From positions 207,451 through 271,450 of the forward strand of contig JAQUNI010000001.1 in the NCBI GenBank assembly GCA_028717685.1: a stretch of DNA of 64,000 bases, written 5' to 3'. Under the pieces are notes generated by a model. It was given only the letters and a program-made list of their open reading frames with translations. It was not told where the DNA came from and made no database searches. This document shows positions 8,699 through 58,385 of this stretch, one piece after another; positions within the stretch are counted from its first letter, which is position 1, and every line of letters begins with the position of its first letter. The position numbers and the translations under genes were made by a program. This DNA is from Patescibacteria group bacterium (GTDB taxonomy: Bacteria; Patescibacteriota; JAQUNI01).

Positions 8699-8702
8699 GG
8701 AT

Positions 8703-8950
8703 TTGGAATTATGAATTAGGAATAGTGAATCAGGAATAACGAATTAGGAAGAATAAAATAAAGCCTTTTCCCAAGGCTTTATTCAAATATAAAAAAGTGG
8801 ATTCTTGCCTACACGAGATTTACCAAGCGGCTCACACCGCCCTACTCGTGGTCTTGGGAAGCATATGTATTATACACTGGCAGAATAAACTGTCAACCTT
8901 AAGGGGATTAGGAATTATGAATATTTTTATATTCCTGATTCATGATTCCT
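8703..8950. repeat. heptad-repeat palindromic element (GAATNAG arms, ~150 nt GC-richer core), empty copy between mltG and rplJ
   Basis: Left arm gaattatgaattaggaatagtgaatcaggaataacgaattagg; right arm ggaattatgaat...attcctgattcatgattcctgattcatt; core includes hairpin aaagcctt/aaggcttt. Confidence 0.7.
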
Positions 8951-8957
8951 GATTCAT

Positions 8958-9971: not shown

Positions 9972-10024
9972 ATATTGGAATCAGGAATAATGAATTAGGA
10001 ATCAGGAATAGAAAATATTCATAA

Positions 10025-11104
10025 TCACAAATACTTCTTCTGCCCATTCTTCTCCAATGTCTCCACAATCTTTTTTACATCCTGCGACCGATCCTTGGGA
10101 CAGATTAACAAAATATCTTCCGTGTCAATAACCACCATATCGCGCATACCGATAGTAGCCACTAATTTTTTAGCGGGCGCATAAATTAAACTGCCGTCCG
10201 TATCCAAACCAACGTGATGGCACTTGATGTAATTCTCGGCTTGGCCGTGCGTCAAAATTTCCTTGACCGCCTGCCATTGCCCCACATCAGACCAGCCAAA
10301 TTCAGCGGGAATGGTTAAAATATTTTTGGTTTTTTCCACAATGCCATAGTCCACGGAGATGGGCTTAATCTTGCTGTACTCTTGGTTTAAAACTTTTTTT
10401 TCTTCCTTTGTGCCAATGGCTTTCTGAATCTTCCTTAATTTTTTATAAGTGTCGGGAAGATATTTTTCAAAAAGCGCGACCAAGGACTTCGCTTTCCAAA
10501 AAAACATCCCCGAATTCCATAAATATTGGCCTGAAGCGATATAGCGTTGGGCGGTTTTTAAATCCGGTTTTTCCACAAAACGTTTCACATAATAAACAGC
10601 GTCCTTGCCTCGCTTTTTTAAAAGACGGCTGCGTTCAATATAGCCATAGCCGGTTTCAGGATAAGCCGGATTCATGCCCAAAATCACCGTGTATTCCGGC
10701 CTCTCCGCAACAATCTGTTCAGCCAATTTTGCCACCCGGCGGTATTCATCTTCATCCAGAATATAATGGTCAGAGTAGACGCAAGACATCACTGCCTCCG
10801 GATCCCGTTTTTCCAAAATCATTGCCGCGAGGCCTAGAGCTGCCGCTGTATCTTTGCGTTCCGGCTCCAAAGAAAAATTGGAAAGCGAAAGAGAAGGAAG
10901 TTGTTTTCTAATATCCTTAAAATTTTTCCGCCCCGTGGTAATGAGGATATGTTTTTTATCCACGGCTTTGGCTAGACGGGTGAAAGTTTTTTGTAAAAGC
11001 GTGCGGTTGCCAATAATGGCTTGGGATTGTTTGGGTTTAGCCTTGCGGCTTACAGGCCAAAGGCGCGTCCCCGTTCCGCCCGCCATAATCACGGCGTAGA
11101 ACAT
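10025..11104 (-). CDS. mannose-1-phosphate guanylyltransferase-like sugar nucleotidyltransferase
   Basis: Nucleotidyltransferase G-loop AVIMAGGTGTRLWP; the track ORF extends to 11152, but Met17 (MFYAVIMAGG) is the likelier start. Confidence 0.75.
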   Translation of the reverse strand: MFYAVIMAGGTGTRLWPVSRKAKPKQSQAIIGNRTLLQKTFTRLAKAVDKKHILITTGRKNFKDIRKQLPSLSLSNFSLEPERKDTAAALGLAAMILEKRDPEAVMSCVYSDHYILDEDEYRRVAKLAEQIVAERPEYTVILGMNPAYPETGYGYIERSRLLKKRGKDAVYYVKRFVEKPDLKTAQRYIASGQYLWNSGMFFWKAKSLVALFEKYLPDTYKKLRKIQKAIGTKEEKKVLNQEYSKIKPISVDYGIVEKTKNILTIPAEFGWSDVGQWQAVKEILTHGQAENYIKCHHVGLDTDGSLIYAPAKKLVATIGMRDMVVIDTEDILLICPKDRSQDVKKIVETLEKNGQKKYL

Positions 11105-12203: not shown

Positions 12204-12500
12204 AATGATGTTTATAATCTATCACAAATTTCTTTCCGAATCAAGGGAAAGACCCCCTCTTGCCTCCCCCTTGGTAAGGGGGAGTGCCGCTCCCACCCCC
12301 TCTAGTGTCAGGTTCTTATAATGCGAGTTTCACTAATATAGGTCTGCATTCTGGCCTGCCGGCAGGCAGGCAGGCTCCATAATCCCCTCGCTTCGCTCGG
12401 GGATTATGGAGCTCCTTGACTTTTATCTTTGTATATTCTAAAATCAATGTGCCCTGAATATCCTTAGATCTTTACACTAATACTGAAAGGAGAGAAAAAT

Positions 12501-12873: not shown

Positions 12874-12901
12874 ACCCACGGAATAAGCTGGGTCTTTTTT
12901 T
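12874..12901 (+). terminator. intrinsic terminator
   Basis: Hairpin GACCCACGGAATAAGCTGGGTC followed by TTTTTTT. Confidence 0.7.
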
Positions 12902-13222
12902 ATAATAAATACCTCCCACCCCCTCTTAATCAGAGGGTAAAAATCCTTGCTTTTTTTCTTTAGATATGATATAATATAACCATCAAGTACAAAGAGCTCG
13001 CCCCGTGTTTAAAGCGAGCTTTTCGGCTTTTTAGGGATGTCGTTCGAACGACATTCTAAAGACATCCTAAAGAACGGTGAGACCCGCCTCCGCTAAAGCT
13101 TCCCCCTTCGCTCACAAGCTTCGGGGGACAAGTCGGAGGGTGAGACCCGCCTGAAGCCGACTACGGCGAAGTAAATCAAAACAAAAAATATCCTGCTCCA
13201 AAATAAGGGTAGGACACATAAA

Positions 13223-19936: not shown

Positions 19937-19965
19937 AACACCCCTAAAGAATAAGAGGGTGTTTT
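19937..19965 (+). terminator. intrinsic terminator (AACACCCC...AGGGTGTTTT family)
   Basis: aacacccctaaagaataagagggtgtttt; same stem and loop family as 14747..14776. Confidence 0.6.
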
Positions 19966-19968
19966 AAT

Positions 19969-20093
19969 TAATTTTCAATTTTCATTAAATTTTCAATGTA
20001 TTAATTTTCAAACTTTTTTGTTGATGAAAGTTTTTAAAAATTAAAAATTAAAAGAATTTAATAGAAATTAGAAATTGAAAATTAAAAATTATT
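19969..20093. repeat. heptad-repeat palindromic element (TTTCAAT / GAAATTA arms)
   Basis: aattttcaattttcattaaattttcaatg ... aatttaatagaaattagaaattgaaaattaaaaatta. Confidence 0.6.
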
Positions 20094-20431
20094 CGTCTGT
20101 GGATAACTTTCTTGAATCAAATCTTAAACAAAAATATAATAAAAGTGCGTGTTTCCGCTAGTGTCAAATATTGTCATGCCGTTCTTTCGCTCCTTAGCGT
20201 CTAGCGCCAAAAGGAGCAATTGCTTATCCGCCTTTTTAGGACAAAGGCGGACACCATGCCTCTTGGAGAACTTATATTTTTTATGCGCGTGTTGAGTAAG
20301 TTTTCCAAGAGCGCTTTTTTTTGACAAAAAAAATTAAAAATGGTATTATAGAAAGGCTTTATTCTAAGAACTTGTTATTATTCTTGCTATTATTTTGGTA
20401 CATTTTATTTCAAAAATAAGGAGAGCAAAAA

Positions 20432-22297: not shown

Positions 22298-22371
22298 TGG
22301 CAGGGGTGGAGGGAATCGGACCCCCGACTACGGTTTTGGAGACCGTCGTTATACCACTTAACTACACCCCC
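22298..22371 (-). tRNA. tRNA-Trp (anticodon CCA), 3' CCA encoded
   Basis: Manual cloverleaf: acceptor GGGGGTG/CACCCCT, anticodon loop CTCCAAA, T-loop TCCGATT, 3' end GCCA. Confidence 0.75.
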
Positions 22372-22380
22372 GAAAATAAA

Positions 22381-22494
22381 ATTTCTAATTTTCAATTTCT
22401 AATTTCTATTAAATTTTCAATGAATCAATTTTTAGGCAGTTTAAAAATTAAGAAATTAGAAATTTAATAAAAATTAAGAAATAAAAATTAAAAA
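22381..22494. repeat. heptad-repeat palindromic element (TTTCTAAT / GAAATTA arms) between tRNA-Trp and rpmG
   Basis: atttctaattttcaatttctaatttctattaaattttcaatg ... aaattagaaatttaataaaaattaagaaataaaaattaaaaatta. Confidence 0.6.
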
Positions 22495-22656
22495 TTATTT
22501 CTTTACTTCTTTATGCAAGATGTGCTTGCGGCAATGGCGGCAGTATTTTTTTAATTCCAGTTTTTTCGCCTGCGGATCCTTCTTGTTGCGGCGGGTGAAA
22601 TAATTGATATTCTTGCACGCCGTGCATTGCAGGCGAACTAAAGTTTTTTGGGGCAT
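22495..22656 (-). CDS. rpmG: 50S ribosomal protein L33
   Basis: Not in the ORF track (53 aa); translation [53 protein letters not shown] with the L33 Cys4 zinc ribbon; the conserved rpmG/tRNA-Trp neighbourhood is present. Confidence 0.85.
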
Positions 22657-22695
22657 AGAAATAAGTTAAAAGATAAAAGTGAAAAGTCATTTTTG

Positions 22696-22767
22696 AGCCC
22701 ACGAGCGGATTTGAACCGCTGACCTACTCCTTACCATGGAGTTGCTCTACCACTGAGCTACATGGGC
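22696..22767 (-). tRNA. tRNA-Thr (anticodon GGU)
   Basis: Manual cloverleaf: acceptor GCCCATG/CGTGGGC (one G-U pair), D-arm GCTC..GAGC, anticodon stem ACTCC/GGAGT, loop ATGGTAA, T-arm AGCGG-TTCAAAT-CCGCT. Confidence 0.75.
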
Positions 22768-22864
22768 TAAAAAGGAATCATATATTATGAATCAGGAATT
22801 ATGAATGGGGAAAATTATGAATAAAAAAAATAATTCATTATTCCCGATTCCCTATTCCTTATTC

Positions 22865-22947
22865 CATGATTGTGGGGAGAGCAGGATTTGAACCTGCGTA
22901 GCCCGAAGGCGCGAGTTTTACAGACTCGAGCAATTGACCACTCTGCC
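22865..22947 (-). tRNA. tRNA-Tyr (anticodon GUA), long variable arm
   Basis: Acceptor GGGGAGA/TCTCCCC, anticodon loop CTGTAAA, long variable arm, T-loop TTCAAAT. Confidence 0.75.
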
Positions 22948-23092
22948 ATCTCCCCGTCTTCAAGTTAAAAGTCCAGAGTTCAAAATTCAAAGTTGAATCC
23001 AAAGTTCAAAGTTAAATTCCTGAGATTTTAAATTTTTAACTGTAACTTTTAACTTTGCACTTTGAACTTTTAACTATTTTTGAGCCGAGGAG

Positions 23093-23164
23093 AGGATTCG
23101 AACCCCCAACCTTGGCTTTACAAAAGCCCTGCTCTACCTTTGAGCTACCTCGGCAAAAGGGAAT
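23093..23164 (-). tRNA. tRNA-Thr (anticodon UGU)
   Basis: Acceptor GCCGAGG/CCTCGGC, D-arm GCTC-AAAGGTA-GAGC, anticodon loop TTTGTAA, T-loop TTCGAAT. Confidence 0.75.
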
Positions 23165-23248
23165 AATGAATCAGGAATTATGAATGAGGAAAATTATGAA
23201 TAAAAAAAATAATTCATTATTCTCCAATTACCAATTACTAATTACAGA

Positions 23249-28395: not shown

Positions 28396-29265
28396 TTGAT
28401 AAAAATTGCCTATATTTTGTCCCAAGCTACCGCAAAACTTAGAAAGAGACTGATTCCCTCCGCCCCTTTAGAAGCGGAGATTTTATTATCTTCTGTTCTA
28501 AGGAAAAAACGAGAATACCTGCTTGCGCGCCCAGGGGACGCCATAATTTTAAGCCAAAGCCAAAAATACCAAGCCTTAATCTCGCGCCGCGTTAAAGGTG
28601 AACCCGCGGCTTATCTCACACATCACAAAGAATTTTACGGTCTGGATTTTTATGTTAACAAAAATACTCTCATCCCGCGGCCGGAATCAGAACTAATCAT
28701 TGAGGAGGTCAAAAAAATTACAGCATCCTGCGCAAAACCAATTATTATTGATGTAGGCACGGGATCGGGGTGTCTCGCAATTACCTTGGCGCACAGCATA
28801 CCGCGAGCTACTGTATACGCCACTGACCTTTCGCCAAAAGCGCTCTCTGTCGCCCGAAGAAACGCCCGCTTACACAAGGTAACAATCAAATTCCTGCAAG
28901 GCGATCTTATTTCGCCCTTGCCATCTTGCGTTTGGCAGCTACCTAGCAAAAAAATTATTATTGCCAATCTCCCCTATCTTTCAGAAAAATACCGCGAAGA
29001 TATCCGCGACACGAGCTTAAAATATGAACCCAAAGCAGCTCTTTGGGGCGGCAAAGACGGTTTAAAATATTATCGGCAATTATTTCAACAAATCCAAACA
29101 AGAATCAGGAATCAGGAATCAGGAATCAGGATATTTGCGGAAATCAACCCTGAACAAGTGAATAAAATAGAAAGAATAATCAGAAAATATTTTGTCCATA
29201 CAGATATAAAAATCAAAAAAGACCTTGCTGGTCTTGATAGAGTTGTCGTTATAAAAATAAACTAA
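28396..29265 (+). CDS. prmC: release factor glutamine N5-methyltransferase (PrmC/HemK)
   Basis: SAM motif IIIDVGTGSGCLAI; NPPY-type motif NLPY; contains an in-frame GAATCAG x4 tandem-repeat insertion (RIRNQESGIRIF) at 29100-29131. Confidence 0.85.
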   Translation: MIKIAYILSQATAKLRKRLIPSAPLEAEILLSSVLRKKREYLLARPGDAIILSQSQKYQALISRRVKGEPAAYLTHHKEFYGLDFYVNKNTLIPRPESELIIEEVKKITASCAKPIIIDVGTGSGCLAITLAHSIPRATVYATDLSPKALSVARRNARLHKVTIKFLQGDLISPLPSCVWQLPSKKIIIANLPYLSEKYREDIRDTSLKYEPKAALWGGKDGLKYYRQLFQQIQTRIRNQESGIRIFAEINPEQVNKIERIIRKYFVHTDIKIKKDLAGLDRVVVIKIN

Positions 29266-29276
29266 TGGTGCCCTAA

Positions 29277-29452
29277 GTTATTTATTTTGTCATTGCGAGG
29301 AGGGCTTATAGTCAGATCCCTCGCTTCCGCTCGGGACAGGCTCCGTAATCTCATCGAGCTATATTTATACAGATCTAGGAGATTGCTTCGGGCTCCGCCT
29401 AGGGCGGATCCCTCGCAATGACGGTATATTTCGTAATTCAAGGTAGGCTACG
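29277..29452. mobile_element. MITE-like GC-rich element with ~40 nt terminal inverted repeat (ACCTTGAATTACGAAAT...TGTCATTGCGAGGAGGG), copy A
   Basis: Right end ccctcgcaatgacggtatatttcgtaattcaaggtagg; internal ggagattgcttcg and gctcgatgagattacggagcctgtcccgagcggaagcgaggg shared with the copies at 34232 and 50212; no ORF. Confidence 0.6.
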
Positions 29453-34231: not shown

Positions 34232-34440
34232 TGAATTATGAAATGCGTCGTCTATTAGCGAGAGATCCGCCCTAGGCGGAGACCAAAGCCCGCCCGCCTC
34301 GCCTGAAGCGAAGCGATGGCGGGCAGGCAATCTCCTAAATCTGTATGAATAACAGCTCGATGAGATTACGGAGCCTGTCCCGAGCGGAAGCGAGGGATCT
34401 GACTATAAGCCCTCCTCACTAATAGGCAAAATGAATTCCG
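34232..34440. mobile_element. MITE-like GC-rich element, copy B (opposite orientation to copy A)
   Basis: Contains gctcgatgagattacggagcctgtcccgagcggaagcgagggatctgactataagccctcctc (revcomp of copy A's internal segment) and TIR-like ends aaccttgaattatgaaatg... / ...gaattccgcgattcaaggt. Confidence 0.55.
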
Positions 34441-40382: not shown

Positions 40383-41543
40383 TTGTACGCTTCATACTTT
40401 AAGTTTTATGCAACTATGTATTTAGGTCGCATTGAATCTGGAAAATCATACAAGAAATTTTATCTTTTTTTCATTCTCTTGAGTATAGGATTAATAGGAG
40501 CAATTGTTTATATTACCTTTTCCCGAGCCACAATCATAATTACGCCGAAAAAGGTAACCTTTGAGACTAATTTTGAGGCTGAAGTTTTGGAAAATCCCAA
40601 TACAGAGAATGCTATACCCGGCAAAGTCCTTTCCCTAGAGCTGGAAGAATCAAGGCTGGTCACCACTAATGATAAAAAGGGGGTGGATGGACGCAGCCAT
40701 GGTCTCGTTACCATCTTTAATAAACGCGATAAGGATCAGCCTCTTCTCCCTAAAACACGCCTCCTTTCCGATTCTGGAATCCTTTTCCGCACAGACAAAA
40801 GAGCAGTCGTGCCTAGCGGAGGTCAAATAAATATTGAAGTCACGGCGGACAAAGAAGGAAAGGAAGGCAATATTGGACCAGAGCGTTTTACCCTCGTCAA
40901 CATTTGGAAAGGCTGGCGGGATAAACTCTATGCTGAATCTTATACTCCAATGACTGGGGGCTACACTGAAGTGCCATATATTTATGGTTCCACGATTGAT
41001 AAGGCTTTAGATATGCTAACTGAAGATCTTTACGCTAAAAATCTCACCGCTCTCCACCAAAGAGTCTCTTCTAGCGAAACCATTCTGGAAGGGGCGGTGA
41101 AGAATGAAATGTTGGAATTCTCTTCTTCGGTTGAGCCGGAGACACAAGCGGATAAGTTTATTATTAAAGCCAAAGTGAGAACTGTAGCGCTTGTTTGCAA
41201 TGAAGAAAAATTAAAAGATCTAGCCCAAAAACATCTGAAGAACGATGCTCCCCGCGACAAAGAATTCCTGGGTATTCAGTGGGATAGCTTTAATTACAAG
41301 CTTAAATCCTATGATTTAGAAAAAAAGACTGCCCTCGTTACCACCCACCTTGAGGGCGAATCCCGCGCGAAAATATCGGCAGATCTTCTTGAAAAACAGG
41401 AACTCGTTAGTCTGGACCGTTATGAAGTGAAAAAATATTTTGAACGTTTTGACGATGTGGGAGAGGCCGAAGTCTATTTCAAACCATTCTGGGTGCATAA
41501 AGTGCCTTCAATGTTGGATCATTTTGAGATCCAAGTTAAATGA
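40383..41543 (+). CDS. hypothetical membrane-anchored protein
   Basis: N-terminal TM (FYLFFILLSIGLIGAIVYITF); no family recognised. Confidence 0.45.
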   Translation: MYASYFKFYATMYLGRIESGKSYKKFYLFFILLSIGLIGAIVYITFSRATIIITPKKVTFETNFEAEVLENPNTENAIPGKVLSLELEESRLVTTNDKKGVDGRSHGLVTIFNKRDKDQPLLPKTRLLSDSGILFRTDKRAVVPSGGQINIEVTADKEGKEGNIGPERFTLVNIWKGWRDKLYAESYTPMTGGYTEVPYIYGSTIDKALDMLTEDLYAKNLTALHQRVSSSETILEGAVKNEMLEFSSSVEPETQADKFIIKAKVRTVALVCNEEKLKDLAQKHLKNDAPRDKEFLGIQWDSFNYKLKSYDLEKKTALVTTHLEGESRAKISADLLEKQELVSLDRYEVKKYFERFDDVGEAEVYFKPFWVHKVPSMLDHFEIQVK

Positions 41544-41753
41544 TAATTTTTAATTTTCAATTTCTAATTTTCATTAAATTTCCATTTACTTAATTTTTAA
41601 ACAAATAAAAATCAAATTCTCTTAACCCGCTTACCATAGAATCCGAAAGTTTAAAAATTATTTCATTAAAAATTTAATAAAAATTGCCACACCTAACGGG
41701 TGGTCACCCATTAGGGTGAAAAATTATAAATTAGAAATTTTATTTACATAAAT

Positions 41754-43732: not shown

Positions 43733-45115
43733 ATGCAAACCTATTTTTTAAAAACTTTCGGCTGCCAAATGAACCAGTCGGACGCGGAGCGGATTGCCGC
43801 GGTTTTAGAAAAAGCAGGGCTCACTTTATCTTCTGAAAAAGAAGCAGATATTTTAATCGCCAATGTTTGCGCGGTGCGGCAGCGAGCAATGGATCGGGTT
43901 TACGCCCTGGTGAATAAATGGCAAAAACGGAAAGATGCAAAAATTATCCTCACAGGCTGCATCTTAGAAAAAGATAAAAAATTGTTCTGCGATAAGGCGC
44001 ATGGTATTGTTCCCATAGGCGCGATTGCGAAACTGCCACAAATCATTAAAGATGGAGACGCGAAACATTGCATCTCTATAAAATCATATTTGGGAATAAA
44101 ACCAAAACATCATAATTCCTTTTCGGCTTATGTGCCGATTATGACCGGCTGCAATAATTTCTGCGCTTACTGCGTTGTCCCCTACACGCGAGGCAGAGAA
44201 ATTTCAAGACCGGCGGATGAAATTATAAAGGAGGTGCGAAGTCTTATAAAGATTGGATATAAAGAAATTATCCTGCTTGGACAGAATGTGAATTCATACC
44301 AGAGTAAACTCAAATGTCAAAACTCAAATGCCAAAACTACAACTCAAAACTCAAAACTAATAAATTTCCCAAAGTTATTGCAAATGATAGATAGCATAAC
44401 GGGTAATTTTTGGATTGGATTTATTACCTCGCATCCTAAAGATATGTCAGATAAGTTAATTAACACAATTGCGCGATGTAAAAAGGTTTGCAAATATATC
44501 CATTTACCAATCCAATCAGGAGATGATGGGATTTTGAAAAGGATGAACCGAAAATATACGGTTGCGCATTATTTGGGTTTAATAAAGAAAATCCGCTCCA
44601 GAATCCCGAAGGTGGCGATTTCCACGGATGTCATTGTCGGCTTTCCTGGCGAAACCAAAAAGCAATTTGAAAATACGGTCAAAGTTTTTAAAAAAGTAAA
44701 ATTTGATATGGCTTATATTGCCCAATATTCCCCGCGTCCTGGCACAGCCGCGGCGAAATTCAAAGATGACGTCAAAAGCCAAGAAAAAAAACGGAGATTT
44801 CAAATCTTAAATCAATTGCTCAAAAAGATTGCGCTGGAAAATAATCAAAAATTAGTGGGGAAAGAAATGGAAATTTTAGTGGAGCAATATGAGAAAGGAT
44901 ATTGCGTAGGAAAAACGCGCGCTTTTAAAAATGTGAAATTTAGAAATAATGGGAAGAAAAATTTGGAAGGTGAATTTGTGAAGATAAAAATCGCAAAAGC
45001 AACGGCGTGGGGATTAGAAGGGAATATTTCTCCCCTGACAAGGGGAGATAAGAGAGGGGTTAATAAAAAACCGCAAAATCTTTTTTTCAAGACTTTGCGG
45101 CAAAGAACGCAATGA
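43733..45115 (+). CDS. miaB: tRNA methylthiotransferase MiaB-like (radical SAM, MTTase family)
   Basis: N-terminal MTTase domain MQTYFLKTFGCQMNQSD; radical SAM CNNFCAYCVVP; TRAM domain; in-frame low-complexity insertion QSKLKCQNSNAKTTTQNSKL. Confidence 0.85.
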   Translation: MQTYFLKTFGCQMNQSDAERIAAVLEKAGLTLSSEKEADILIANVCAVRQRAMDRVYALVNKWQKRKDAKIILTGCILEKDKKLFCDKAHGIVPIGAIAKLPQIIKDGDAKHCISIKSYLGIKPKHHNSFSAYVPIMTGCNNFCAYCVVPYTRGREISRPADEIIKEVRSLIKIGYKEIILLGQNVNSYQSKLKCQNSNAKTTTQNSKLINFPKLLQMIDSITGNFWIGFITSHPKDMSDKLINTIARCKKVCKYIHLPIQSGDDGILKRMNRKYTVAHYLGLIKKIRSRIPKVAISTDVIVGFPGETKKQFENTVKVFKKVKFDMAYIAQYSPRPGTAAAKFKDDVKSQEKKRRFQILNQLLKKIALENNQKLVGKEMEILVEQYEKGYCVGKTRAFKNVKFRNNGKKNLEGEFVKIKIAKATAWGLEGNISPLTRGDKRGVNKKPQNLFFKTLRQRTQ

Positions 45116-46396: not shown

Positions 46397-46933
46397 CTAA
46401 TCAATAACGCCGCCCGCGCAGATCCGATGGAATAATGCTTCTTTTTCTTCTTCATCTTTATGGATAAAAAATATCCATTCGTGATAAAGAAAACTCTCAA
46501 AAGACGCGTTATTCGGGTTTGAAAAACGAATAACAAAGACAAGATCATCCGAAACAAAACTTTGCAATTCTGCGGCGCCATTCCAAAGATCAGATATGAA
46601 CCTAGCGCGCCCTTTTCTGACCGAATCTAGAATCATTTCTTTGGTGTAATCACTAGTCGGCGAGGTAATGCCGTAATAACTGCGTCCCCAAACCGGAACA
46701 TCATAGTCTTGAAATATCATTTCTTGACCAGAAAATTTTTCTCTGCCAAAATACCTATCAATATAACGTAACTTCGGCTTCGGAGTATTTATGTTTAATC
46801 TGGAATATTCATAAACTATTTCTCGAGGCAAGCTAATAGAAAATTCAACCTTAAAAATATCACCTTCCTCACCCGCCAAATAGGTTTTACTTTCAGCTTC
46901 TATTAAAAACTGTGTAATCTGTTCAATATTCAT
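46397..46933 (-). CDS. hypothetical protein
   Basis: Met16 (MNIEQ...) start has SD AAGGAGGA 8 nt upstream; no family recognised. Confidence 0.45.
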   Translation of the reverse strand: MNIEQITQFLIEAESKTYLAGEEGDIFKVEFSISLPREIVYEYSRLNINTPKPKLRYIDRYFGREKFSGQEMIFQDYDVPVWGRSYYGITSPTSDYTKEMILDSVRKGRARFISDLWNGAAELQSFVSDDLVFVIRFSNPNNASFESFLYHEWIFFIHKDEEEKEALFHRICAGGVID

Positions 46934-47009
46934 TTTTTTCCTCCTTATACCTATCAAAAAGCAAAAACTGATTATCATTCTCGGCGCAACTGCCTCGGGT
47001 AAAACTGAG

Positions 47010-48056
47010 ATGTCTTTAGAATTGGCTAAAAAAATTCCAAACAGCTACATCATTTCCGCGGATTCGCGCCAAATCTATAAAGGCTTAGATATCGGCACGG
47101 GAAAATTGACCGGCGGAAGACACAAAATTTTAAAAGGACAAAATATTCTTCACTTCCACAATATCCCGCATTATATGATTGATATTATGGAGCCGAACCG
47201 AGAATACACAGTAGCACAATATCAGAAGAGTGTCAAAAAGGTTATCCGCGAAAACAAAGGCAGAATCCCATTTTTGGTCGGCGGCACAGGGCTTTATATT
47301 AACGCGATTGTGGACGGCTTGTCTATCCCCCCTTCGGCACCAGATTACAAACTGCGCGGAAAACTTGAGAAAGAAACGGACGGAAATTTATTTCAGAAAT
47401 TAAAAAAATTAGATCCAATTTGCGCCCAAAAAATTGATTCAAAAAATAAACGGCGCTTAATCCGCGCGCTGGAAGTGTGTTTAAAGACAGGGAAGCCATT
47501 TTCTAGTTTACAGAAAAAGAAAAAACCCAATTACGATGTTCTGCAAATTGGGATTTCTGTGCCGCGAGAAGAATTATATGAGCGCATTGATAAGCGCGTA
47601 GACAGAATGATAAAACAAGGACTAATTGAAGAAGCAAAAAAAATCTTAAAAAAATATGAGCTTTTGAATTCACTCCCCCTGCCCGAGAAGAGGAGACGTG
47701 AGGGGGTGGGAGTTTATGTAAGTTTAGACCTCTCCAACCTCCCCCCGCACTCGCGGCAAGCAGGCTTAGTAAGGAAAATTTGGAGTGGTACTGAAAAAGA
47801 TTTAAAAAGTCGCAATCTCCCTCCCCCCCTACCCCCCCTCGGGCAGGGGGGGATAATCCACGATTCCATCGGCTACAAAGAAATAATATCGTATCTGGAT
47901 GGTGAAATCAGTTTAGATGAAATGATAGTCTTGATCAAAAAAAACACGCGACATTACGCCCGCCGCCAAATGACTTGGTTTAAGAGGGATAAAAGGATTC
48001 AGTGGATCAAAAATAAAAAAGAGGCGGAAAGATTGGTTAAAAAATTTTTGAGATAA
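47010..48056 (+). CDS. miaA: tRNA dimethylallyltransferase; P-loop lies upstream of the first ATG, and a ~55-aa GC-rich insertion is present
   Basis: SADSRQIYKGLDIGTGK and C-terminal IGYKE...RHYARRQMTWFKRD; the in-frame upstream sequence encodes LIIILGATASGKT (P-loop) with no ATG/GTG/TTG, so the true start is probably CTG/ATT near 46968. Confidence 0.8.
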   Translation: MSLELAKKIPNSYIISADSRQIYKGLDIGTGKLTGGRHKILKGQNILHFHNIPHYMIDIMEPNREYTVAQYQKSVKKVIRENKGRIPFLVGGTGLYINAIVDGLSIPPSAPDYKLRGKLEKETDGNLFQKLKKLDPICAQKIDSKNKRRLIRALEVCLKTGKPFSSLQKKKKPNYDVLQIGISVPREELYERIDKRVDRMIKQGLIEEAKKILKKYELLNSLPLPEKRRREGVGVYVSLDLSNLPPHSRQAGLVRKIWSGTEKDLKSRNLPPPLPPLGQGGIIHDSIGYKEIISYLDGEISLDEMIVLIKKNTRHYARRQMTWFKRDKRIQWIKNKKEAERLVKKFLR

Positions 48057-51870: not shown

Positions 51871-52046
51871 AGAATTAAATTTTCAATTTCTAATTTTCAA
51901 TTTTCATTAAATTTTTAATGAATCAATTTCTAAACAAATAATTTTCAAACTGTTTGCCCCGTTTAGAAATTTGTCATTTCTAACGGGGTTTTAAAATTAA
52001 AACATTGAAAATTTAATAGAAATTAGAAATTAAGAAATTAGAAATT
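51871..52046. repeat. heptad-repeat palindromic element with an embedded CCCCGTTTAGAAAT/ATTTCTAACGGGG hairpin (51957-51990)
   Basis: aattttcaatttctaattttcaattttcattaaattt ... aaatttaatagaaattagaaattaagaaattagaaatt. Confidence 0.65.
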
Positions 52047-52613
52047 CTAGAAATAATATTTCTTCATAATTTCTTTTTCTATCTTTGCATATAATTCTTC
52101 AAAAGTTCCGATGTTTTCAATTTTCACTTTTGCTTTCTGCGCGGTCGCCTTGATCACTGTCTCTGTCGGACTTATATCTTCAATCTCCTTAAATTTGTTA
52201 AAATCCATATTCTTTTCGTCTGCCTTTTCAGTGCGGTTCTTCATTCTTTCAAAACGGATTTTTATCGGCGCGGTAATATACACCAAGATGAAATTATCAA
52301 GCTGGCTGAACATTTCTGCTTCTTCCCGGAAACGCATACCATCCACAATGATCAAATCCGCTTTCTCATCTTTCACATCTTGAAACAAAGTTTTAGCTAA
52401 GATATCATCGCCAAAATTTTGACGCAAAGAAAGACCTAACTTAATTTCATTTTCACGGGTGATCGGCAGATAGAGTTTTTTTAAAACTTCATCTAAAATT
52501 TGAGAAAAACGAAAAACCACAGCATTATATTTTTCCGCTAAATAAGCGGCGGTCGTGCCCTTGCCGGCTAACTTTTCACCAGTTAATCCGACGATGAATT
52601 TTTGTTTTGGCAT
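52047..52613 (-). CDS. P-loop nucleotide kinase (dNMP kinase / dephospho-CoA kinase-like)
   Basis: Walker A GLTGEKLAGKGT; DxxG-like LIIVDGMRF; adjacent to dCMP deaminase/thyA/folA. Confidence 0.5.
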   Translation of the reverse strand: MPKQKFIVGLTGEKLAGKGTTAAYLAEKYNAVVFRFSQILDEVLKKLYLPITRENEIKLGLSLRQNFGDDILAKTLFQDVKDEKADLIIVDGMRFREEAEMFSQLDNFILVYITAPIKIRFERMKNRTEKADEKNMDFNKFKEIEDISPTETVIKATAQKAKVKIENIGTFEELYAKIEKEIMKKYYF

Positions 52614-53855: not shown

Positions 53856-54545
53856 TTAATTCCTCACCCGGACCCCCGGTCCCATAGTGGAACAGACAGA
53901 GATAGAATTCACAAGCTCCCCTTTCTGTCCTTCTGGAGCTTGTTTTTTTACTGTTTCTAAAAGAACCTTAAAATTATTTGCTAATTCTGCCTCGGAAAAA
54001 GACATCTTGCCAATCACCTGATGCACAATCCCCTGTTCATCGGATTTAAACGAAATCTTGCCCGAGGCAAACTCTTTGATTGCCGCAATAATATTGGGGG
54101 TCACTGTCTCACTCTTGGGGTTCGGCATTAAACCTTTTTGACCCAAGAGCTTGCCGATTTGCCCCAAATGCCGCATCATCGCCGGTTCGGCTAGGGCTAA
54201 ATCAAAATTAACCTTCTGGGTTGTCTTGATTTTTTGCACCAATTCTTCGCCGCCCGCAATGGCGGCGCCGGCTTCTTTTGCTTCTTTCATCTTTTCAGGA
54301 GTCACAAAAGCGGCAATCCTTCGGCTCTTGCCCCAACTTTTCGGAAAAACAATCGTGCCGCGGACTACTTGCGTGCCGCTTTTTTTATCTAAATTCAGTT
54401 TAATATGCGCTTCAATGGATTCGTCAAACTTTGCGTTCGCCCCTTCCTTCACTTTCTTCACCGCCTCTTCAATCTCAAAAATTCTCTTTTCTTCCTGGGA
54501 AAGTTTATTTTTTAAATTTTGATAACGTCTAGAATGCTTGGACAT
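53856..54545 (-). CDS. rplA: 50S ribosomal protein L1
   Basis: L1 signatures ...RGTIVFPKSWGKSRRIAAF...; start at MSKHS. Confidence 0.9.
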   Translation of the reverse strand: MSKHSRRYQNLKNKLSQEEKRIFEIEEAVKKVKEGANAKFDESIEAHIKLNLDKKSGTQVVRGTIVFPKSWGKSRRIAAFVTPEKMKEAKEAGAAIAGGEELVQKIKTTQKVNFDLALAEPAMMRHLGQIGKLLGQKGLMPNPKSETVTPNIIAAIKEFASGKISFKSDEQGIVHQVIGKMSFSEAELANNFKVLLETVKKQAPEGQKGELVNSISVCSTMGPGVRVRN

Positions 54546-54550
54546 ACACA

Positions 54551-54686
54551 AATTTTCAATTTCTAATTTTCAATTTTCATTAAATTTTTATTTAATAAAT
54601 TTTTAAACACCCCAACCAAACAAAACAGGAGGTTTAAAAATTAGTTCATTAGAAATTTAATAGAAATTAGAAATTAAAAATTATTT
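54551..54686. repeat. ~136-bp heptad-palindromic element, identical copy 1 of 2 (rplA|rplK spacer)
   Basis: aattttcaatttctaattttcaattttcattaaatttttatttaataaatttttaaacaccccaaccaaacaaaacaggaggtttaaaaattagttcattagaaatttaatagaaattagaaattaaaaattatttta is base-for-base identical to 55112..55247. Confidence 0.8.
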
Positions 54687-55106
54687 TATTATCTCAATCC
54701 CCATACTCCTCGCCGTCCCTGCGATTATCTTTTTTGCCTGTTCTAGATCATTGGCATTTAAATCCTGCATCTTGACCTTGGCAATTTCTTCAATTTGCAC
54801 TTCTGTAACCTTGCCCACCTTTTTTTTATTCGGCTCGCCCGAACCCTTTTTCACTTGCGCTATTTTCTTTAAAAGCTCTGCGGCGGGCGGAGTTTTCAGA
54901 ATAAAATCAAAAGTGCGGTCCTCATAAACCGTAATTTCCGCGGGGATGATCTCGTCCCCTTTATCTTTGGTCATCTCATTAAATTTGCTGCAAAAATCCT
55001 GAATGTTTAATCCGTGCTGACCCAAAGCGGGGCCTATAGGGGGAGCAGGATTTGCCTTACCTGCGGGGATCTGAAGTTTGATAATTGTTTTAATAGGCTT
55101 AGACAT
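54681..55106 (-). CDS. rplK: 50S ribosomal protein L11
   Basis: L11 N-terminal motif [27 protein letters not shown]. Confidence 0.95.
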
Positions 55107-55111
55107 GTAAA

Positions 55112-55247
55112 AATTTTCAATTTCTAATTTTCAATTTTCATTAAATTTTTATTTAATAAATTTTTAAACACCCCAACCAAACAAAACAGGAGGTTTAAAA
55201 ATTAGTTCATTAGAAATTTAATAGAAATTAGAAATTAAAAATTATTT
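55112..55247. repeat. ~136-bp heptad-palindromic element, identical copy 2 of 2 (rplK|nusG spacer)
   Basis: Identical to 54551..54686. Confidence 0.8.
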
Positions 55248-55792
55248 TAGATTTTTTTGATCTGTAAAAAGTCTAACTCTACTGGCGTTTCCCGGCCAAA
55301 CATATTCACCAGGACCTTGATCTTTCCCCGCTCTTCATCAAGATGAGAAACTTTCCCGTCAAAACCCTTAAAGGGTCCGTCAATAATTTTGACCGCCTCG
55401 CCAATCTCCACATCAATTTTATATTTCGGCTCGGTAACGCCCATCCTCTTTTTCAAAGACTTAATCTCTTCATCAGAAATCGGTGTCGGCGTAGTTCCAG
55501 AACCAACAAAGCCGGTCACATTAGGGGTATTCCTAACCACATACCAAGAATCATCGGTGACAACCATTTCCACTAAAACATAGCCGGGAAAAATCTTCTC
55601 TTCAATCACTTTCCGCCGGCCATTCTTAATCTTAATCTTTTTCTCTTTAGGCACTAAAACATCAAAGATTTTGTCCTCCATATCCAAGGACTCAATTCTC
55701 TGGCGAAGATTATGGGCTACGTTTTCCTCGTAACCAGAATAGGTGTGAAGCACATACCAACGTCGTTCTTGCTCCCCTAATTGCTTGGGCAT
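55247..55792 (-). CDS. nusG: transcription termination/antitermination factor NusG
   Basis: NGN domain WYVLHTYSGYEENV; KOW motif. Confidence 0.9.
   Translation of the reverse strand: MPKQLGEQERRWYVLHTYSGYEENVAHNLRQRIESLDMEDKIFDVLVPKEKKIKIKNGRRKVIEEKIFPGYVLVEMVVTDDSWYVVRNTPNVTGFVGSGTTPTPISDEEIKSLKKRMGVTEPKYKIDVEIGEAVKIIDGPFKGFDGKVSHLDEERGKIKVLVNMFGRETPVELDFLQIKKI

Positions 55793-56245: not shown

Positions 56246-58385
<2,140 letters not shown>

What the first reader, a model, noticed from the sequence alone, without database searches (positions are those of the whole stretch)
46914..47880. miaA has its P-loop upstream of the first ATG, and a ~55-aa GC-rich palindromic insertion
The track ORF starts at ATG 47010 (MSLELAKK...). 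The same frame is open from the TAA at ~46914 and encodes ...PIKKQKLIIILGATASGKTE just upstream, i.e. the canonical MiaA P-loop, with no ATG/GTG/TTG available. So translation must start at a rare codon (CTG ~46968 or ATT/ATC) inside the 20-nt divergent spacer shared with the minus-strand gene starting at ~46933; otherwise the gene is damaged. Separately, 47680-47870 is a GC-rich block with hairpins (ccccccctcgggcaggggggg) encoding LPLPEKRRREGVGVYVSLDLSNLPPHSRQAGLVRKIWSGTEKDLKSRNLPPPLPPLGQGG. It sits exactly where MiaA proteins usually go straight from '...LL..LP' to 'IGYKE', and resembles the intergenic CCCCC/GGGGG hairpin elements at 12236-12310 and 12901-12950.
Basis: partly seen in the sequence, partly recalled or inferred. 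Interest (0 to 1): 0.6.

Follow-up and report, generated by a model that had tools for sequence, protein, structure and literature searches.

The report
miaA: lost ATG, in-frame triplex-motif insertion
In this Patescibacteria genome the tRNA-modification gene miaA has its start codon changed from ATG to ATA, and it carries a 60-codon in-frame insert built from small GC-rich 'hairpin plus mirror tail' repeats; related bacteria carry these repeats inside many essential genes, whereas in E. coli they lie only between genes.

Summary
Both observations hold. miaA (46947-48056, +) is an intact MiaA equivalog. Its first strand and P-loop (46965-47009) lie upstream of the only canonical start, ATG 47010. 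The frame is open from TAG 46881 and contains no ATG, GTG or TTG before 47010. The closest relative (92% aa) has ATG where the window has ATA (46947), a single G-to-A change. The 20 upstream codons evolve like coding DNA (omega 0.11), and an intact miaB lies upstream, so the gene is probably still used and starts at a near-cognate codon. A consensus error cannot be excluded.

The GC-rich block is exactly 180 nt (47673-47852, 60 codons, phase 0). It replaces a linker that is 10 aa long in 105 of 120 homologues, and AlphaFold predicts it to be disordered. It consists of two inverted units around a 104-nt centre. Each unit is a pyrimidine arm, loop, purine arm, short loop and mirror-image G-tail, which is the BoxC/PIT/TM intrastrand-triplex design known from E. 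coli.

One unit type occurs in many Patescibacteria MAGs. There, 53 of 59 copies lie inside long ORFs and are read in frame, much like Rickettsia palindromic elements. I rate it a new variant of known kinds; how it functions and spreads is unknown.

The parts
46947..48056 (+). miaA coding region as inferred here (369 codons plus stop), counted from the position of the ancestral start codon
   Evidence: NCBIfam TIGR00174 miaA equivalog, 271.7 bits against a cutoff of 148.65. Pfam IPPT, 8.8e-77. The AlphaFold model matches the MiaA-tRNA complexes 2zm5 and 3foz with TM 0.83-0.85. dN/dS against L001 is 0.12.
46881..46883 (+). nearest in-frame upstream stop codon (TAG); the frame is open from 46884
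   Evidence: codon listing
46947..46949 (+). ATA at the position of the ancestral ATG start; the most likely (weak) initiation codon
   Evidence: The alignment with L001 shows ...TTCCTCCTTATGCCTATCAAAAAG in the relative and ...TTCCTCCTTATACCTATCAAAAAG in the window.
46965..47009 (+). first beta strand and P-loop (KLIIILGATASGKTE; the P-loop GATASGKT is 46983-47006), all upstream of the first canonical start
   Evidence: translation; AlphaFold strand at residues 6-12; near-invariant columns G13, T15 to K19 in 120 homologues
47010..47012 (+). first canonical start codon (ATG) in the frame; starting here would delete beta-1 and the P-loop
46931..46947 (-). start codon (46933-46931) and AAGGAGG Shine-Dalgarno (46947-46941) of the divergent DUF5680 gene; it fills the whole 13-nt spacer, so miaA has no Shine-Dalgarno of its own
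47673..47852 (+). 180-nt (60-codon) in-frame GC-rich composite insertion encoding LPLPEKRRRE...PLGQGG
   Evidence: pLDDT is below 50 for residues 248-250, 253-266 and 268-298, i.e. most of the insertion (residues 243-302).
47673..47712 (+). left unit, a triplex-motif unit in inverted orientation and degenerate: Y arm CTCCCCC, loop TGCCCGA, decayed R arm within GAAGAGGAGACGT, G-tail GAGGGGGTGGGAG
   Evidence: Its reverse complement, CTCCCACCCCCTC-ACGTCTCCTCTT-CTCGGGCAGGGGGAG, lines up with the unit A consensus. The 13-mer is shared with 12290 and 12913.
47713..47816 (+). 104-nt central segment of unknown origin, not found elsewhere
   Evidence: No other copy in the window. A 21-mer from it matched only the orthologous miaA locus in JGI metagenomes.
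47817..47852 (-). right unit ('unit A'), a perfect class II triplex-type module on the minus strand: CCCCCCC TGCCCGA GGGGGGG TA GGGGGGG AGGGAG
   Evidence: triplex-motif finder; the same unit is found in 92 stretches of genome contigs
12252..12302 (-). intergenic module of the same design (CTCCCCCTT ACC AAGGGGGAG GCAA GAGGGGGT), with the unit A head 13-mer next to it at 12290-12302
12913..12925 (+). isolated copy of the 13-mer CTCCCACCCCCTC, next to a small hairpin
45029..45060 (+). module TCTCCCCT GACA AGGGGAGA TAAG AGAGGGGT inside the C-terminal tail of miaB
   Evidence: 92% identical to a copy at the 3' end of miaA in L001
631..660 (-). a further module of the same design
43733..45115 (+). 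intact miaB, which uses the product of MiaA as its substrate
   Evidence: TIGR01574 equivalog, 411.9 bits against a cutoff of 355.3; Pfam UPF0004 + Radical_SAM + TRAM

Best explanation
miaA is a real and probably still functional gene with two blemishes.

(1) Start codon. Its ancestral ATG has become ATA (46947) through one G-to-A transition. The protein most likely still begins there, or at a nearby near-cognate codon (ATC 46953 or CTG 46968). Initiation would be weak and independent of a Shine-Dalgarno sequence, and would yield the full enzyme with beta-1 and the P-loop.

(2) Insertion. The 180-nt block 47673-47852 is passenger DNA inserted in frame into a short, permissive linker just before the conserved GYKE motif. 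It is made of two inverted copies of a small GC-rich unit around a 104-nt centre. Each unit consists of a pyrimidine arm, a loop, a purine arm, a loop of about 3 nt, and a G-rich tail that mirrors the purine arm. This is the intrastrand-triplex (BoxC/PIT/TM) design.

The block is transcribed and translated into a disordered 60-aa loop rich in proline, glycine and basic residues, which the enzyme tolerates. Only open, multiple-of-three versions survive selection.

Shown: the sequence facts, the orthologue comparison, the family-wide architecture, and the intragenic, in-frame habit of the unit.
Inferred: use of ATA as a start, translation of the insert, and its neutrality.
For: Start codon
- There is no canonical start between TAG 46881 and ATG 47010.
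- L001 (92% aa identity) has ATG at the aligned position. Three more distant relatives (P0003, P0004, P0005) also start with ATG, 3-7 codons before the K-L-I strand.
- The 20 codons upstream of ATG 47010 have dS 0.43 and omega 0.11. The rest of the gene has dS 0.37 and omega 0.12.
- The MiaA equivalog score, the invariant residues and the fold are all intact.
- beta-1 is residues 6-12, so a start at 47010 would remove the core of the nucleotide-binding fold.
- An intact miaB equivalog lies upstream.
- NCBI also resorted to a non-canonical start (ATT 46977, protein P0001).

Insertion
- It is exactly 60 codons in phase 0.
- The linker is 10 aa in 105 of 120 homologues. Fifteen sequences have longer linkers (window 71 aa, P0002 72 aa, 13 others 12-51 aa), the longest of them unrelated repeat-like inserts, including a GTAG/CTAC REP doublet in L100.
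- The insert aligns to an 11-residue loop of B. halodurans MiaA, and most of its residues have pLDDT below 50.
- The right-hand 57 nt, from CGCAAT to CACGATTCC, are about 90% identical in L003, whose MiaA is only 58% identical. Two 1-nt indels there change the local reading frame (LPPLGQGGII against LTPPRAGGVI), so what is shared is DNA, not protein.
- The 19-mer hairpin occurs in 92 stretches of genome contigs (my estimate for a random 19-mer is about 4), many per MAG.
- 53 of 59 full units lie in open frames of at least 450 nt, against an 86.6% background. They are read in five different frames on both strands, and frames containing stops are avoided or the spacer is changed.
- Mirror-tail architecture: 32 of 65 independently sampled hairpins carry an exact mirror copy, 6 carry a direct copy, and other permutations occur at 3% each (P = 9e-7). 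The window has 4 modules against 0 in shuffles.
- The design matches TMECO, CCCTCNCCC N3-6 GGGNGAGGG N3 GGGNGAGGG (PMC4666352).
Against: Start codon
- ATA is a very poor initiator in model bacteria (my own knowledge), and there is no Shine-Dalgarno sequence, so expression could be negligible.
- Only one assembly carries this sequence, so the A at 46949 is unverified.
- The dN/dS values cover both lineages since they split, so they cannot show that the window lineage is still under selection.

Insertion
- No transcript or peptide data exist.
- The insert is much less diverged from L001 than the rest of the gene (dS 0.045 against 0.37). This could mean constraint, which would argue against neutrality. 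However, the low-divergence tract extends about 70 nt upstream and 110 nt downstream of the insert, which points to a recombination tract.
- No target-site duplication, transposase or other means of spread was identified.
- The 104-nt centre has no other copy.
Confidence: 0.62

Rival explanations
1. The ATA is not real. It is a base-call or consensus error, or a minority allele fixed by the assembler, and the organism's miaA starts with ATG like its relatives.
For: The difference from L001 is a single base. Everything else in the gene looks healthy. No second assembly of this exact sequence exists to confirm it.
Against: Substitution errors in assembled consensus sequence are rare (my own knowledge). 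The region is not a homopolymer or low-complexity site. The sequence immediately upstream has been rearranged in this lineage: the 95-aa gene present in L001 and L100 is absent here. The locus therefore has a history of real change.
Confidence: 0.2
2. miaA is at an early stage of inactivation. The start-codon loss is real, translation begins at ATG 47010 or not at all, and the product lacks beta-1 and the P-loop and is inactive.
For: There is no canonical start and no Shine-Dalgarno sequence. miaA is dispensable in E. coli (my own knowledge).
Against: There are no other lesions (no frameshift and no stop) in 369 codons. Omega is 0.11-0.12, including the upstream 20 codons. All invariant residues are kept. 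The downstream-acting partner miaB is intact.
Confidence: 0.12
3. The insertion is maintained by selection rather than merely tolerated. It could act at the nucleic-acid level, where a triplex or long hairpin slows translation or replication, or acts as a recombination hotspot. Alternatively it could act as an extra basic protein loop. This is not exclusive of the best explanation for how it arose.
For: Unit A is far better conserved than its host genes at orthologous sites. The roughly 20 positions not fixed by the search pattern match at 14-18 of 20, against about 65% identity in the flanks, for L020/L063, L024/L027 and L034/L070. It sits at the same position in orthologous genes of different genomes, for example a gene whose flanks read like SMC. 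It is not depleted from coding DNA. The arm, partner arm and mirror tail covary three ways. Synonymous divergence within the insert is low.
Against: The low divergence in miaA is explained by a wider recombination tract. Relatives manage without it (P0004) or carry unrelated inserts at the same place. The left unit is decaying. In E. coli no function was found for the related TM/PIT elements beyond an association with instability (PMC4666352). High copy-to-copy identity is equally expected of a recently spreading selfish element.
Confidence: 0.2
4. The block is removed or skipped before the protein is made, as an intron-like excision or by ribosomal bypassing, so it never appears in MiaA.
For: A strong 15-bp closing helix brings the two ends together. 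GC-rich inserts that ribosomes bypass are known in yeast mitochondria (my own knowledge).
Against: The block is exactly 60 codons, in phase and free of stops. In L001 a 3-nt indel keeps it in frame. Across genomes the units are open in frame in 53 of 59 cases, with spacers changed where a stop would arise, which is the signature of translation. There is no Rfam match and no intein-like domain.
Confidence: 0.03

Closest known systems
BoxC / PIT (potential intrastrand triplex) elements, also called TM/TMECO motifs (Holder et al. 2015, Nucleic Acids Res 43:10126, PMC4666352)
   Same: The design is the same: a pyrimidine domain, a 3-8-nt loop, a purine domain, a loop of about 3 nt (TTA or CTA) and a G-rich reverse-Hoogsteen domain that mirrors the purine domain. 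Both are about 35-40 nt long, multi-copy and highly conserved, sometimes occur as inverted pairs, and have no linked transposase. Near-TMECO copies (CCCTCTCCC cttgt GGGAGAGGG ttg GGGTGAGGG) occur in the Patescibacteria loci themselves.
   Different: In E. coli the motif is 'always located intergenically'. Here 53 of 59 copies of unit A lie inside ORFs and are read in frame. Unit A has homopolymer C7/G7 arms and a fixed TCGGGCA loop. Triplex formation has not been tested for these sequences.
Rickettsia palindromic elements (RPE; Ogata et al. 2000, Science; cited from memory)
   Same: Both are short palindromic repeats inserted in frame into many protein-coding genes, including housekeeping genes, and translated as extra peptide segments that do not destroy the protein.
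   Different: The lineage is different (Patescibacteria), there is no sequence relationship, the units are much shorter (about 37 nt against about 100-150 nt), and they have a mirror-repeat (triplex-type) architecture rather than a simple palindrome.
MITEs and REP/BIME elements (reviews PMC10969869 and PMC3184786; GTAG/CGTC-tagged REPs, PMC3733652)
   Same: The 180-nt block has perfect 13-15-bp terminal inverted repeats, folds into one long hairpin and has MITE-like size. The modular mosaic of units recalls BIMEs. A true GTAG/CTAC REP doublet occupies the same miaA linker in L100.
   Different: No target-site duplication was found. The whole 180-nt element is not multi-copy; its centre is unique to this locus. 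The units carry no GTAG or CGTC tag.
Genes with non-AUG/GUG/UUG starts, such as infC and pcnB (AUU) in E. coli (cited from memory)
   Same: These are functional genes whose only possible start is a near-cognate codon, which gives low expression.
   Different: In those genes the rare start is conserved and regulatory. Here it is a lineage-specific single-base loss of an ATG that all sampled relatives keep, and there is no Shine-Dalgarno sequence to help.
GC-cluster 'byp' elements in yeast mitochondrial genes (Lang et al. 2014, PNAS; cited from memory)
   Same: Both are GC-rich mobile hairpin inserts inside protein-coding genes of a genome with lower GC.
   Different: Byps break the frame and are skipped by the ribosome. 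The inserts here keep the frame and appear to be translated.

Membership tests
MiaA (tRNA dimethylallyltransferase, TIGR00174 / PF01715) | Profile match above the curated cutoff | tested here: met
   TIGR00174 equivalog, 271.7 bits against a cutoff of 148.65. PF01715, 258.5 bits, split into two stretches by the insert.
MiaA (tRNA dimethylallyltransferase, TIGR00174 / PF01715) | N-terminal P-loop G-x-T-x-x-G-K-[ST] preceded by a beta strand | tested here: met
   KLIIILGATASGKTE is encoded at 46965-47009 and lies upstream of the first canonical start. Alanine replaces the usual proline, as it also does in relative P0003.
MiaA (tRNA dimethylallyltransferase, TIGR00174 / PF01715) | Family-invariant residues (the DSR/DSxQ motif, GGTGLY and others) and the MiaA fold | tested here: met
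   All 22 invariant columns of the 120-sequence alignment are present. Foldseek TM is 0.83-0.85 to 2zm5 and 3foz.
MiaA (tRNA dimethylallyltransferase, TIGR00174 / PF01715) | A usable translation start upstream of the P-loop | tested here: not met
   No ATG, GTG or TTG occurs in 46884-47009. ATA stands at the ancestral ATG position. Whether ATA functions as a start cannot be tested here.
Intrastrand triplex motif (BoxC/PIT/TM, class II) | Pyrimidine domain, loop, complementary purine domain, short loop, and a third domain that mirrors the purine domain (G opposite G; A or T opposite A) | tested here: met
   47822-47852 (minus strand) reads CCCCCCCT GCCCG AGGGGGGG TA GGGGGGGA. There are 4 modules in the window against 0 in 30 shuffles. 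Family-wide, mirror-only copies outnumber direct-only copies 28 to 2, P = 9e-7.
Intrastrand triplex motif (BoxC/PIT/TM, class II) | Multi-copy, highly conserved unit of about 37 nt | tested here: met
   92 stretches in genome contigs with a near-identical 37-nt consensus, and several copies per MAG. The window itself holds only one full unit A.
Intrastrand triplex motif (BoxC/PIT/TM, class II) | Intergenic location (as described for E. coli TMECO) | tested here: not met
   53 of 59 units lie inside open frames of at least 450 nt. The window copies sit in miaA and in the miaB tail.
Intrastrand triplex motif (BoxC/PIT/TM, class II) | Actual triplex formation (CD, NMR or polymerase stop) | not testable with these tools
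   It needs biophysical measurement on oligonucleotides.
RPE-like in-frame palindromic elements | A repeat unit inserted in many ORFs with the reading frame preserved and no stops | tested here: met
   Hosts include genes whose flanking peptides read like SMC (L034, L070) and LeuRS (L024, L027, L057), plus MiaA. The SMC and LeuRS identities are my reading of the flanks and were not profile-checked.
RPE-like in-frame palindromic elements | Sequence homology to Rickettsia RPE families | not tested
   No RPE sequences were available here. The different size and architecture make homology unlikely.
RPE-like in-frame palindromic elements | Insertion at a surface or permissive site of the host protein | tested here: inconclusive
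   The linker varies in length among homologues, aligns to an 11-residue loop of 2qgn and has low pLDDT. Distances to the tRNA and the active site were not computed.
MITE | Terminal inverted repeats | tested here: met
   47673-47687 pairs with 47838-47852.
MITE | Target-site duplication | tested here: inconclusive
   No flanking direct repeat is evident. The boundaries are blurred because the host LP codons (CTC CCC) may form part of the left arm.
MITE | The whole element is present in multiple copies | tested here: not met
   There is no second copy in the window. The central 21-mer was found only at the orthologous miaA locus in JGI metagenomes.
Intron, intein or known structured RNA | A match to a known RNA family or to intein domains | tested here: not met
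   Rfam gave nothing at gathering thresholds or at E <= 1. Pfam finds only IPPT, IPT and AAA_18.

The most novel reading that the evidence does not exclude
Patescibacteria, and possibly some other lineages, harbour a superfamily of triplex-type 'hairpin plus mirror tail' modules. Unlike their strictly intergenic E. coli relatives, these modules live mainly inside essential protein-coding genes. They are kept in frame and conserved at the nucleotide level at the same sites in orthologous genes of distant genomes. On this reading they are not just tolerated junk but act at the DNA or RNA level, for example as recombination or replication-pause sites or as translation pause signals, or they spread by an unknown mechanism compatible with coding sequence. 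The miaA insert is one composite instance.
Probability: 0.25. Interest if true: 0.8.

Novelty: new variant of a known kind. Interest (0 to 1): 0.6.

Why it matters
Annotation. Gene callers that use only canonical starts truncate this MiaA to a form without the P-loop (from ATG 47010), and NCBI's choice (ATT 46977) removes the first strand. The orthologue comparison places the real N-terminus at 46947.

Biology. The insert links two literatures that have been separate: intrastrand-triplex (BoxC/PIT/TM) repeats, described as intergenic and of unknown function, and in-frame 'selfish DNA in genes' of the Rickettsia type.

If the habit of living inside genes holds up across complete Patescibacteria genomes, several things follow:
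- It would show that ultra-small, gene-dense genomes accommodate repeats by threading them through protein loops.
- It would explain many proline- and glycine-rich low-complexity inserts in their proteins.
- It would provide a natural system for testing whether triplex-forming sequences affect replication, recombination or translation in vivo.

These inserts also matter for phylogenomics and structure prediction, because they inflate alignments with non-homologous peptide segments.

Tried and rejected
- Independent confirmation of the ATA failed. Neither the 348-aa product nor the 359-aa NCBI product is on record in other assemblies.
- A protein search with the 60-aa insert peptide returned nothing because of the word-index limit, so copies had to be found at the DNA level.
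- Rfam gave no hit at gathering thresholds and only noise at E <= 1, so a known intron or ribozyme is rejected.
- The 19-mer has no match in viral contigs, so there is no phage link.
- I first read the 8-fold lower synonymous divergence of the insert as nucleotide-level constraint. A sliding window then showed that the low-divergence tract extends well beyond the insert, so I attribute it to recombination.
- I considered that the whole 180-nt block is a multi-copy MITE. This is rejected for now, because its centre is unique to this locus.
- The 13-mer match at 62930 is a chance hit inside a Cys-rich gene.
- The 64-nt inverted repeats at 29297 and 34354 looked like transposon ends, but they enclose housekeeping genes and no transposase.
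- A leaderless-mRNA explanation for the start found no support. There is no convincing -10 box next to 46947, and the promoter-like hits do not exceed the number found in shuffles.
- G-quadruplex formation would fit unit A but not the other families, so it does not explain the architecture in general.
- Literature searches for Patescibacteria together with palindromic, MITE, REP or in-frame elements found no prior description.
Full report
**Context**

The window has 41% GC. Its MiaA is 100% identical to an NCBI protein from a 722-kb contig of a 'Patescibacteria group bacterium'. The next relative is a Candidatus Doudnabacteria MAG at 92%.

The local gene order is miaB (43733-45115, +; TIGR01574 equivalog), two small minus-strand genes, a DUF5680 gene (46397-46933, -), miaA (+), a small minus-strand ORF and gatB (-). 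The same neighbourhood is found in the relatives L001 and L005.

**The start-codon observation**

In the miaA frame the nearest upstream stop is TAG 46881. Every codon from 46884 to 47009 is open, and none is ATG, GTG or TTG. The first canonical start is ATG 47010.

The stretch 46947-47009 encodes IPIKKQKLIIILGATASGKTE. In the AlphaFold model (mean pLDDT 85.7, core above 90) residues 6-12 form the first beta strand and the P-loop follows. A protein starting at 47010 would lack both.

NCBI's annotation starts the protein at ATT 46977 (MLGATASGKTE, P0001). That choice keeps the P-loop but removes the strand.

**The cause of the missing start**

The DNA alignment with the 92%-identical relative L001 shows ...CATTTTTTCCTCCTT ATG CCT ATC AAA AAG... 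where the window has ...CATTTTTTTCCTCCTT ATA CCT ATC AAA AAG.... This is one G-to-A transition in the ancestral start codon, at 46949. Three more distant relatives (L100, L005, L003) also start with ATG, 3-7 codons before the K-L-I strand.

The 13 nt between this codon and the divergent DUF5680 start (CAT 46931-46933) are filled by that gene's AAGGAGG on the other strand. The plus strand has no Shine-Dalgarno-like sequence. The relatives L001, L100 and L003 lack one too, so SD-independent initiation appears ancestral for miaA in this clade. In L005 a GAGGGG from a neighbouring repeat module lies 13 nt upstream of the ATG.

**Is the gene still in use?**

Compared with L001, the gene outside the insert has dS 0.37, dN 0.046 and omega 0.12. 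The 20 codons upstream of ATG 47010 give dS 0.43 and omega 0.11. That region has therefore evolved as coding sequence.

All 22 invariant columns of a 120-sequence alignment are kept. The NCBIfam equivalog score is well above its cutoff. The model superposes on the E. coli MiaA-tRNA complexes with TM 0.83-0.85. miaB, which acts on MiaA's product, is intact.

I therefore favour a functional gene that initiates weakly at ATA 46947, or at ATC 46953 or CTG 46968. There are two caveats. dN/dS integrates over both lineages. No second assembly of this exact sequence exists, so a consensus error remains a live rival at about 0.2.

The region just upstream has also changed in this lineage. The 95-aa gene that separates DUF5680 from miaA in L001 and L100 is absent here.

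**The insertion**

Between the helix ending ...KKILKKY and the conserved GYKE motif, 105 of 120 homologues have exactly 10 residues, typically xxxLP(A/S)MSGI. The window has 71. Against B. halodurans MiaA (2qgn), query residues 235-306 face 11 residues.

The extra DNA is exactly 180 nt, 47673-47852, starting in codon phase 0. It has terminal inverted repeats: CTCCCCCTGCCCGAG at 47673-47687 pairs with CTCGGGCAGGGGGGG at 47838-47852. An inner helix pairs GGGGGTGGGAG with CTCCCTCCCCC. The region folds at -81.5 kcal/mol, z = -3.0. The encoded 60 residues are predicted to be disordered, mostly with pLDDT below 50.

L001 has the same insert with five substitutions and one 3-nt indel, so it remains in frame.

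**The linker is a repeated landing site**

Fifteen of the 120 sequences have longer linkers. The window has 71 aa, P0002 has 72 aa, and 13 others have 12-51 aa. The longest of these carry unrelated repeat-like peptides. In L100 the insert is a GTAG...CTAC-tagged REP doublet. P0004 (L005) has no insert.

**What is shared is DNA, not protein**

L003 encodes a MiaA only 58% identical to the window's. It has a shorter insert whose right-hand 57 nt, from CGCAAT through CTCCCTCCCCCCCT(C)ACCCCCCCTCGGGCAGGGGGGG to CACGATTCC, are about 90% identical to the window. Two compensating 1-nt indels make the peptide differ (LPPLGQGGII against LTPPRAGGVI).

**A dispersed unit**

A scan of one genome per species for the 19-mer CCCCCCTCGGGCAGGGGGG found 92 stretches. 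My estimate of the chance expectation for a random 19-mer in 596 Gb is about 4.

Of the 80 listed records, 38 are labelled as Patescibacteria lineages: Uhrbacteria, Doudnabacteria, Andersenbacteria, Saccharibacteria, Magasanikbacteria and Parcubacteria. Several MAGs contribute 5-10 copies each. Some loci labelled 'uncultured Gammaproteobacteria' have flanks identical to a Parcubacteria locus (L023 and L067 against L031), so those labels are doubtful.

The aligned copies give a 37-nt consensus, which I call unit A: CTCCC(A/T)CCCCCCC - T-N-N(N) - CCCCCCC TCGGGCA GGGGGGG.

**Unit A lives inside genes**

Of 59 full units, 53 (90%) lie within open frames of at least 450 nt that read straight through them. 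For random 42-nt windows in the same loci the figure is 86.6%, so the unit is not depleted from coding DNA.

The units are read on both strands in five different frames. This gives SPPARGG(A/V)RGGGS, PPLPEGGLGGVG, LPPPLTPPRAGG, TPTPPSPPSGRGG or LPPPLPPLGQGG. Where the usual TAG, TAA or TGA spacer would be an in-frame stop, the spacer differs.

The same position is occupied in orthologous genes of different genomes. One example is a gene whose flanking peptide reads like the SMC N-terminus (L034, L070). Another reads like LeuRS (L024, L027, L057). A third is an N-terminal site in L020 and L063. These gene identities are my reading of the flanks and were not checked with profiles. At those sites the unit is better conserved than the flanks (19 of the 39 compared positions are fixed by the search pattern).

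This is the behaviour described for Rickettsia palindromic elements (from memory).

**Architecture of the units**

Variants of the unit showed that the upstream 'head' changes together with the hairpin arms, as a mirror image rather than as a direct or inverted copy. Examples are CCCCTCC with CCTCCCC/GGGGAGG, CCCCCTC with CTCCCCC/GGGGGAG, and CCCCTCT with TCTCCCC/GGGGAGA.

I then took 65 C-rich asymmetric pyrimidine/purine hairpins from the loaded loci that had not been selected by my search pattern. Of these, 32 have an exact 7-nt mirror copy within 20 nt and 6 have a direct copy. Other permutations of the same composition occur at 3% each. Mirror-only copies outnumber direct-only copies 28 to 2 (P = 9e-7). 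The linker is usually 3 nt: TAA, TTA or CTA.

Read on the G-tail strand, the design is a pyrimidine arm, loop, purine arm, a loop of about 3 nt, and a G-rich tail antiparallel-matched to the purine arm, with A or T opposite A. This is the class II purine-motif intrastrand triplex.

It is the design of the BoxC/PIT elements, renamed TM/TMECO by Holder et al. 2015. Their consensus is CCCTCNCCC N3-6 GGGNGAGGG N3 GGGNGAGGG, 37 nt long. It occurs 23 times in E. coli K-12, 'always located intergenically', forms a triplex in vitro, is not linked to mobile elements, and is associated with local genomic instability (PMC4666352). Near-TMECO sequences occur in the Patescibacteria loci as well.

**The window's modules**

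A triplex-motif finder reports four perfect modules in the window, against none in 30 shuffles. They are at 631-660 (-), 12252-12284 (-), 45029-45060 (+, inside the C-terminal tail of miaB) and 47822-47852 (-, in miaA).

The miaA insert is therefore built as follows:
- an inverted, partly decayed unit at 47673-47712, whose purine arm now lies within GAAGAGG instead of reading GGGGGAG;
- a 104-nt centre;
- a perfect unit A at 47817-47852.

The two units supply the terminal inverted repeats. The centre has no other copy in the window. A 21-mer from it matched only the orthologous Doudnabacteria locus in JGI metagenomes. I therefore find no evidence that the 180-nt composite moves as a whole.

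**Constraint or recombination?**

Synonymous divergence from L001 is 0.045 inside the insert and 0.37 outside it (P = 2.5e-5). A sliding window shows that the low-divergence tract runs from about 47600 to about 47960, well beyond the insert. dS along the gene ranges from 0 to 0.74.

A recent recombination tract is the simpler reading. I do not claim constraint from this pair.

**What it is not**

- There is no Rfam family at gathering thresholds or at E <= 1.
- There are no intein-like domains.
- The 19-mer has no copies in viral contigs.
- I saw no transposase in the parts of the window I examined.
- Four literature searches found no description of such in-frame elements in Patescibacteria. 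This is absence from one library, not proof of novelty.

**Verdict**

The start problem is a single-base loss of the ancestral ATG. It is interesting for annotation but ordinary in kind.

The insert is a new variant of known kinds. It has the BoxC/PIT/TM triplex-type architecture and an RPE-like in-frame lifestyle, in a phylum where, as far as I could find, it has not been described.

The mechanism of spread, any function, actual triplex formation and translation of the insert all remain inferences.

Noticed in passing
window 43733-45115, especially 45029-45060: miaB (TIGR01574 equivalog) runs about 29 codons beyond its TRAM domain, and a triplex-type module lies inside that tail (...SPLTRGDKRGV...). 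The repeat appears to have extended or replaced the original C-terminus. A 92%-identical copy sits at the 3' end of miaA in L001, where it also extends the ORF (EIKNFSPDKGR).
   Followed up: partly
window 29297-29360 and 34354-34417: A perfect 64-nt inverted repeat pair flanks about 5 kb of housekeeping genes (FtsW/RodA, ribosomal protein L25, a pilin-like protein, DUF3048, a cupin). There is no transposase. The arms belong to another palindromic repeat family (GTCATTGCGAGGA...TCCCTCGCAATGAC) and could mediate inversion of the segment.
   Followed up: partly
window 19949-20095, 22373-22508, 41533-41752, 51871-52072, 54536-54688, 55097-55249, 58266-58381: A family of AT-rich intergenic palindromic repeats about 150 nt long, with a 7-nt periodicity (AATTTTC / AATTTCT ... 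GAAATTA). Two copies 561 nt apart are 97% identical. Their function is unknown.
   Followed up: no
window 1117-1158, 1503-1566, 8699-8754, 8913-8957, 9978-10031, 22761-22864, 23154-23218, 29095-29136: Heptad-periodic GAATCAG/GAATTAT repeats (and their complements) cluster around the tRNA genes at 22298-23154 and in other intergenic spots.
   Followed up: no
window 46855-46947 compared with L001 1515-1911 and L100 596-938: A 95-aa gene lies between DUF5680 and miaA in L001 and L100 but is absent from the window. The sequence immediately upstream of the altered start codon has therefore been rearranged in one of these lineages.
   Followed up: partly
window 46947-48056 compared with L001 1912-3054: Synonymous divergence along miaA is strongly mosaic, ranging from 0 to 0.74 in 30-codon windows. 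This suggests recombination between related lineages.
   Followed up: partly
L100 939-1937 (P0003): This MiaA carries a GTAG...CTAC-tagged REP doublet (GTAGGGGTTTGATTTATCAAACCC ... GGGCGTGATGAATCACGCCCCTAC), translated as GRGLIYQTRMQGVMNHAPT, at the same linker as the window's insert.
   Followed up: partly
L034/L070; L024/L027/L057; L020/L063: Unit A occupies the same position in orthologous genes of different genomes. Judging by the flanking peptides, the hosts are SMC just before ...ITAIVGPNG, LeuRS just before VFTTRPDT, and an N-terminal site about 10 codons into a third gene. The unit is more conserved than the flanks.
   Followed up: partly
L051, L060, L069 (Prevotellaceae and Bacteroidaceae MAGs); L033, L055, L059, L072 (isolate DBS2-1.bin133): Related units in which the head CTCCCACCCC is separated from the CCCCCCTCGGGCAGGGGGG hairpin by an extra 15-28-nt GC-rich palindrome. 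The family therefore extends beyond MAGs labelled Patescibacteria.
   Followed up: no
L023, L067 compared with L031: Loci labelled 'uncultured Gammaproteobacteria' have flanks identical to a locus labelled Parcubacteria group, so some record labels in the genome collection are unreliable.
   Followed up: no
unit A copies across loci: The ORF lies on the G-tail (class II) strand in 55 copies and on the C-head strand in 29. This is a modest orientation bias of unknown cause.
   Followed up: no
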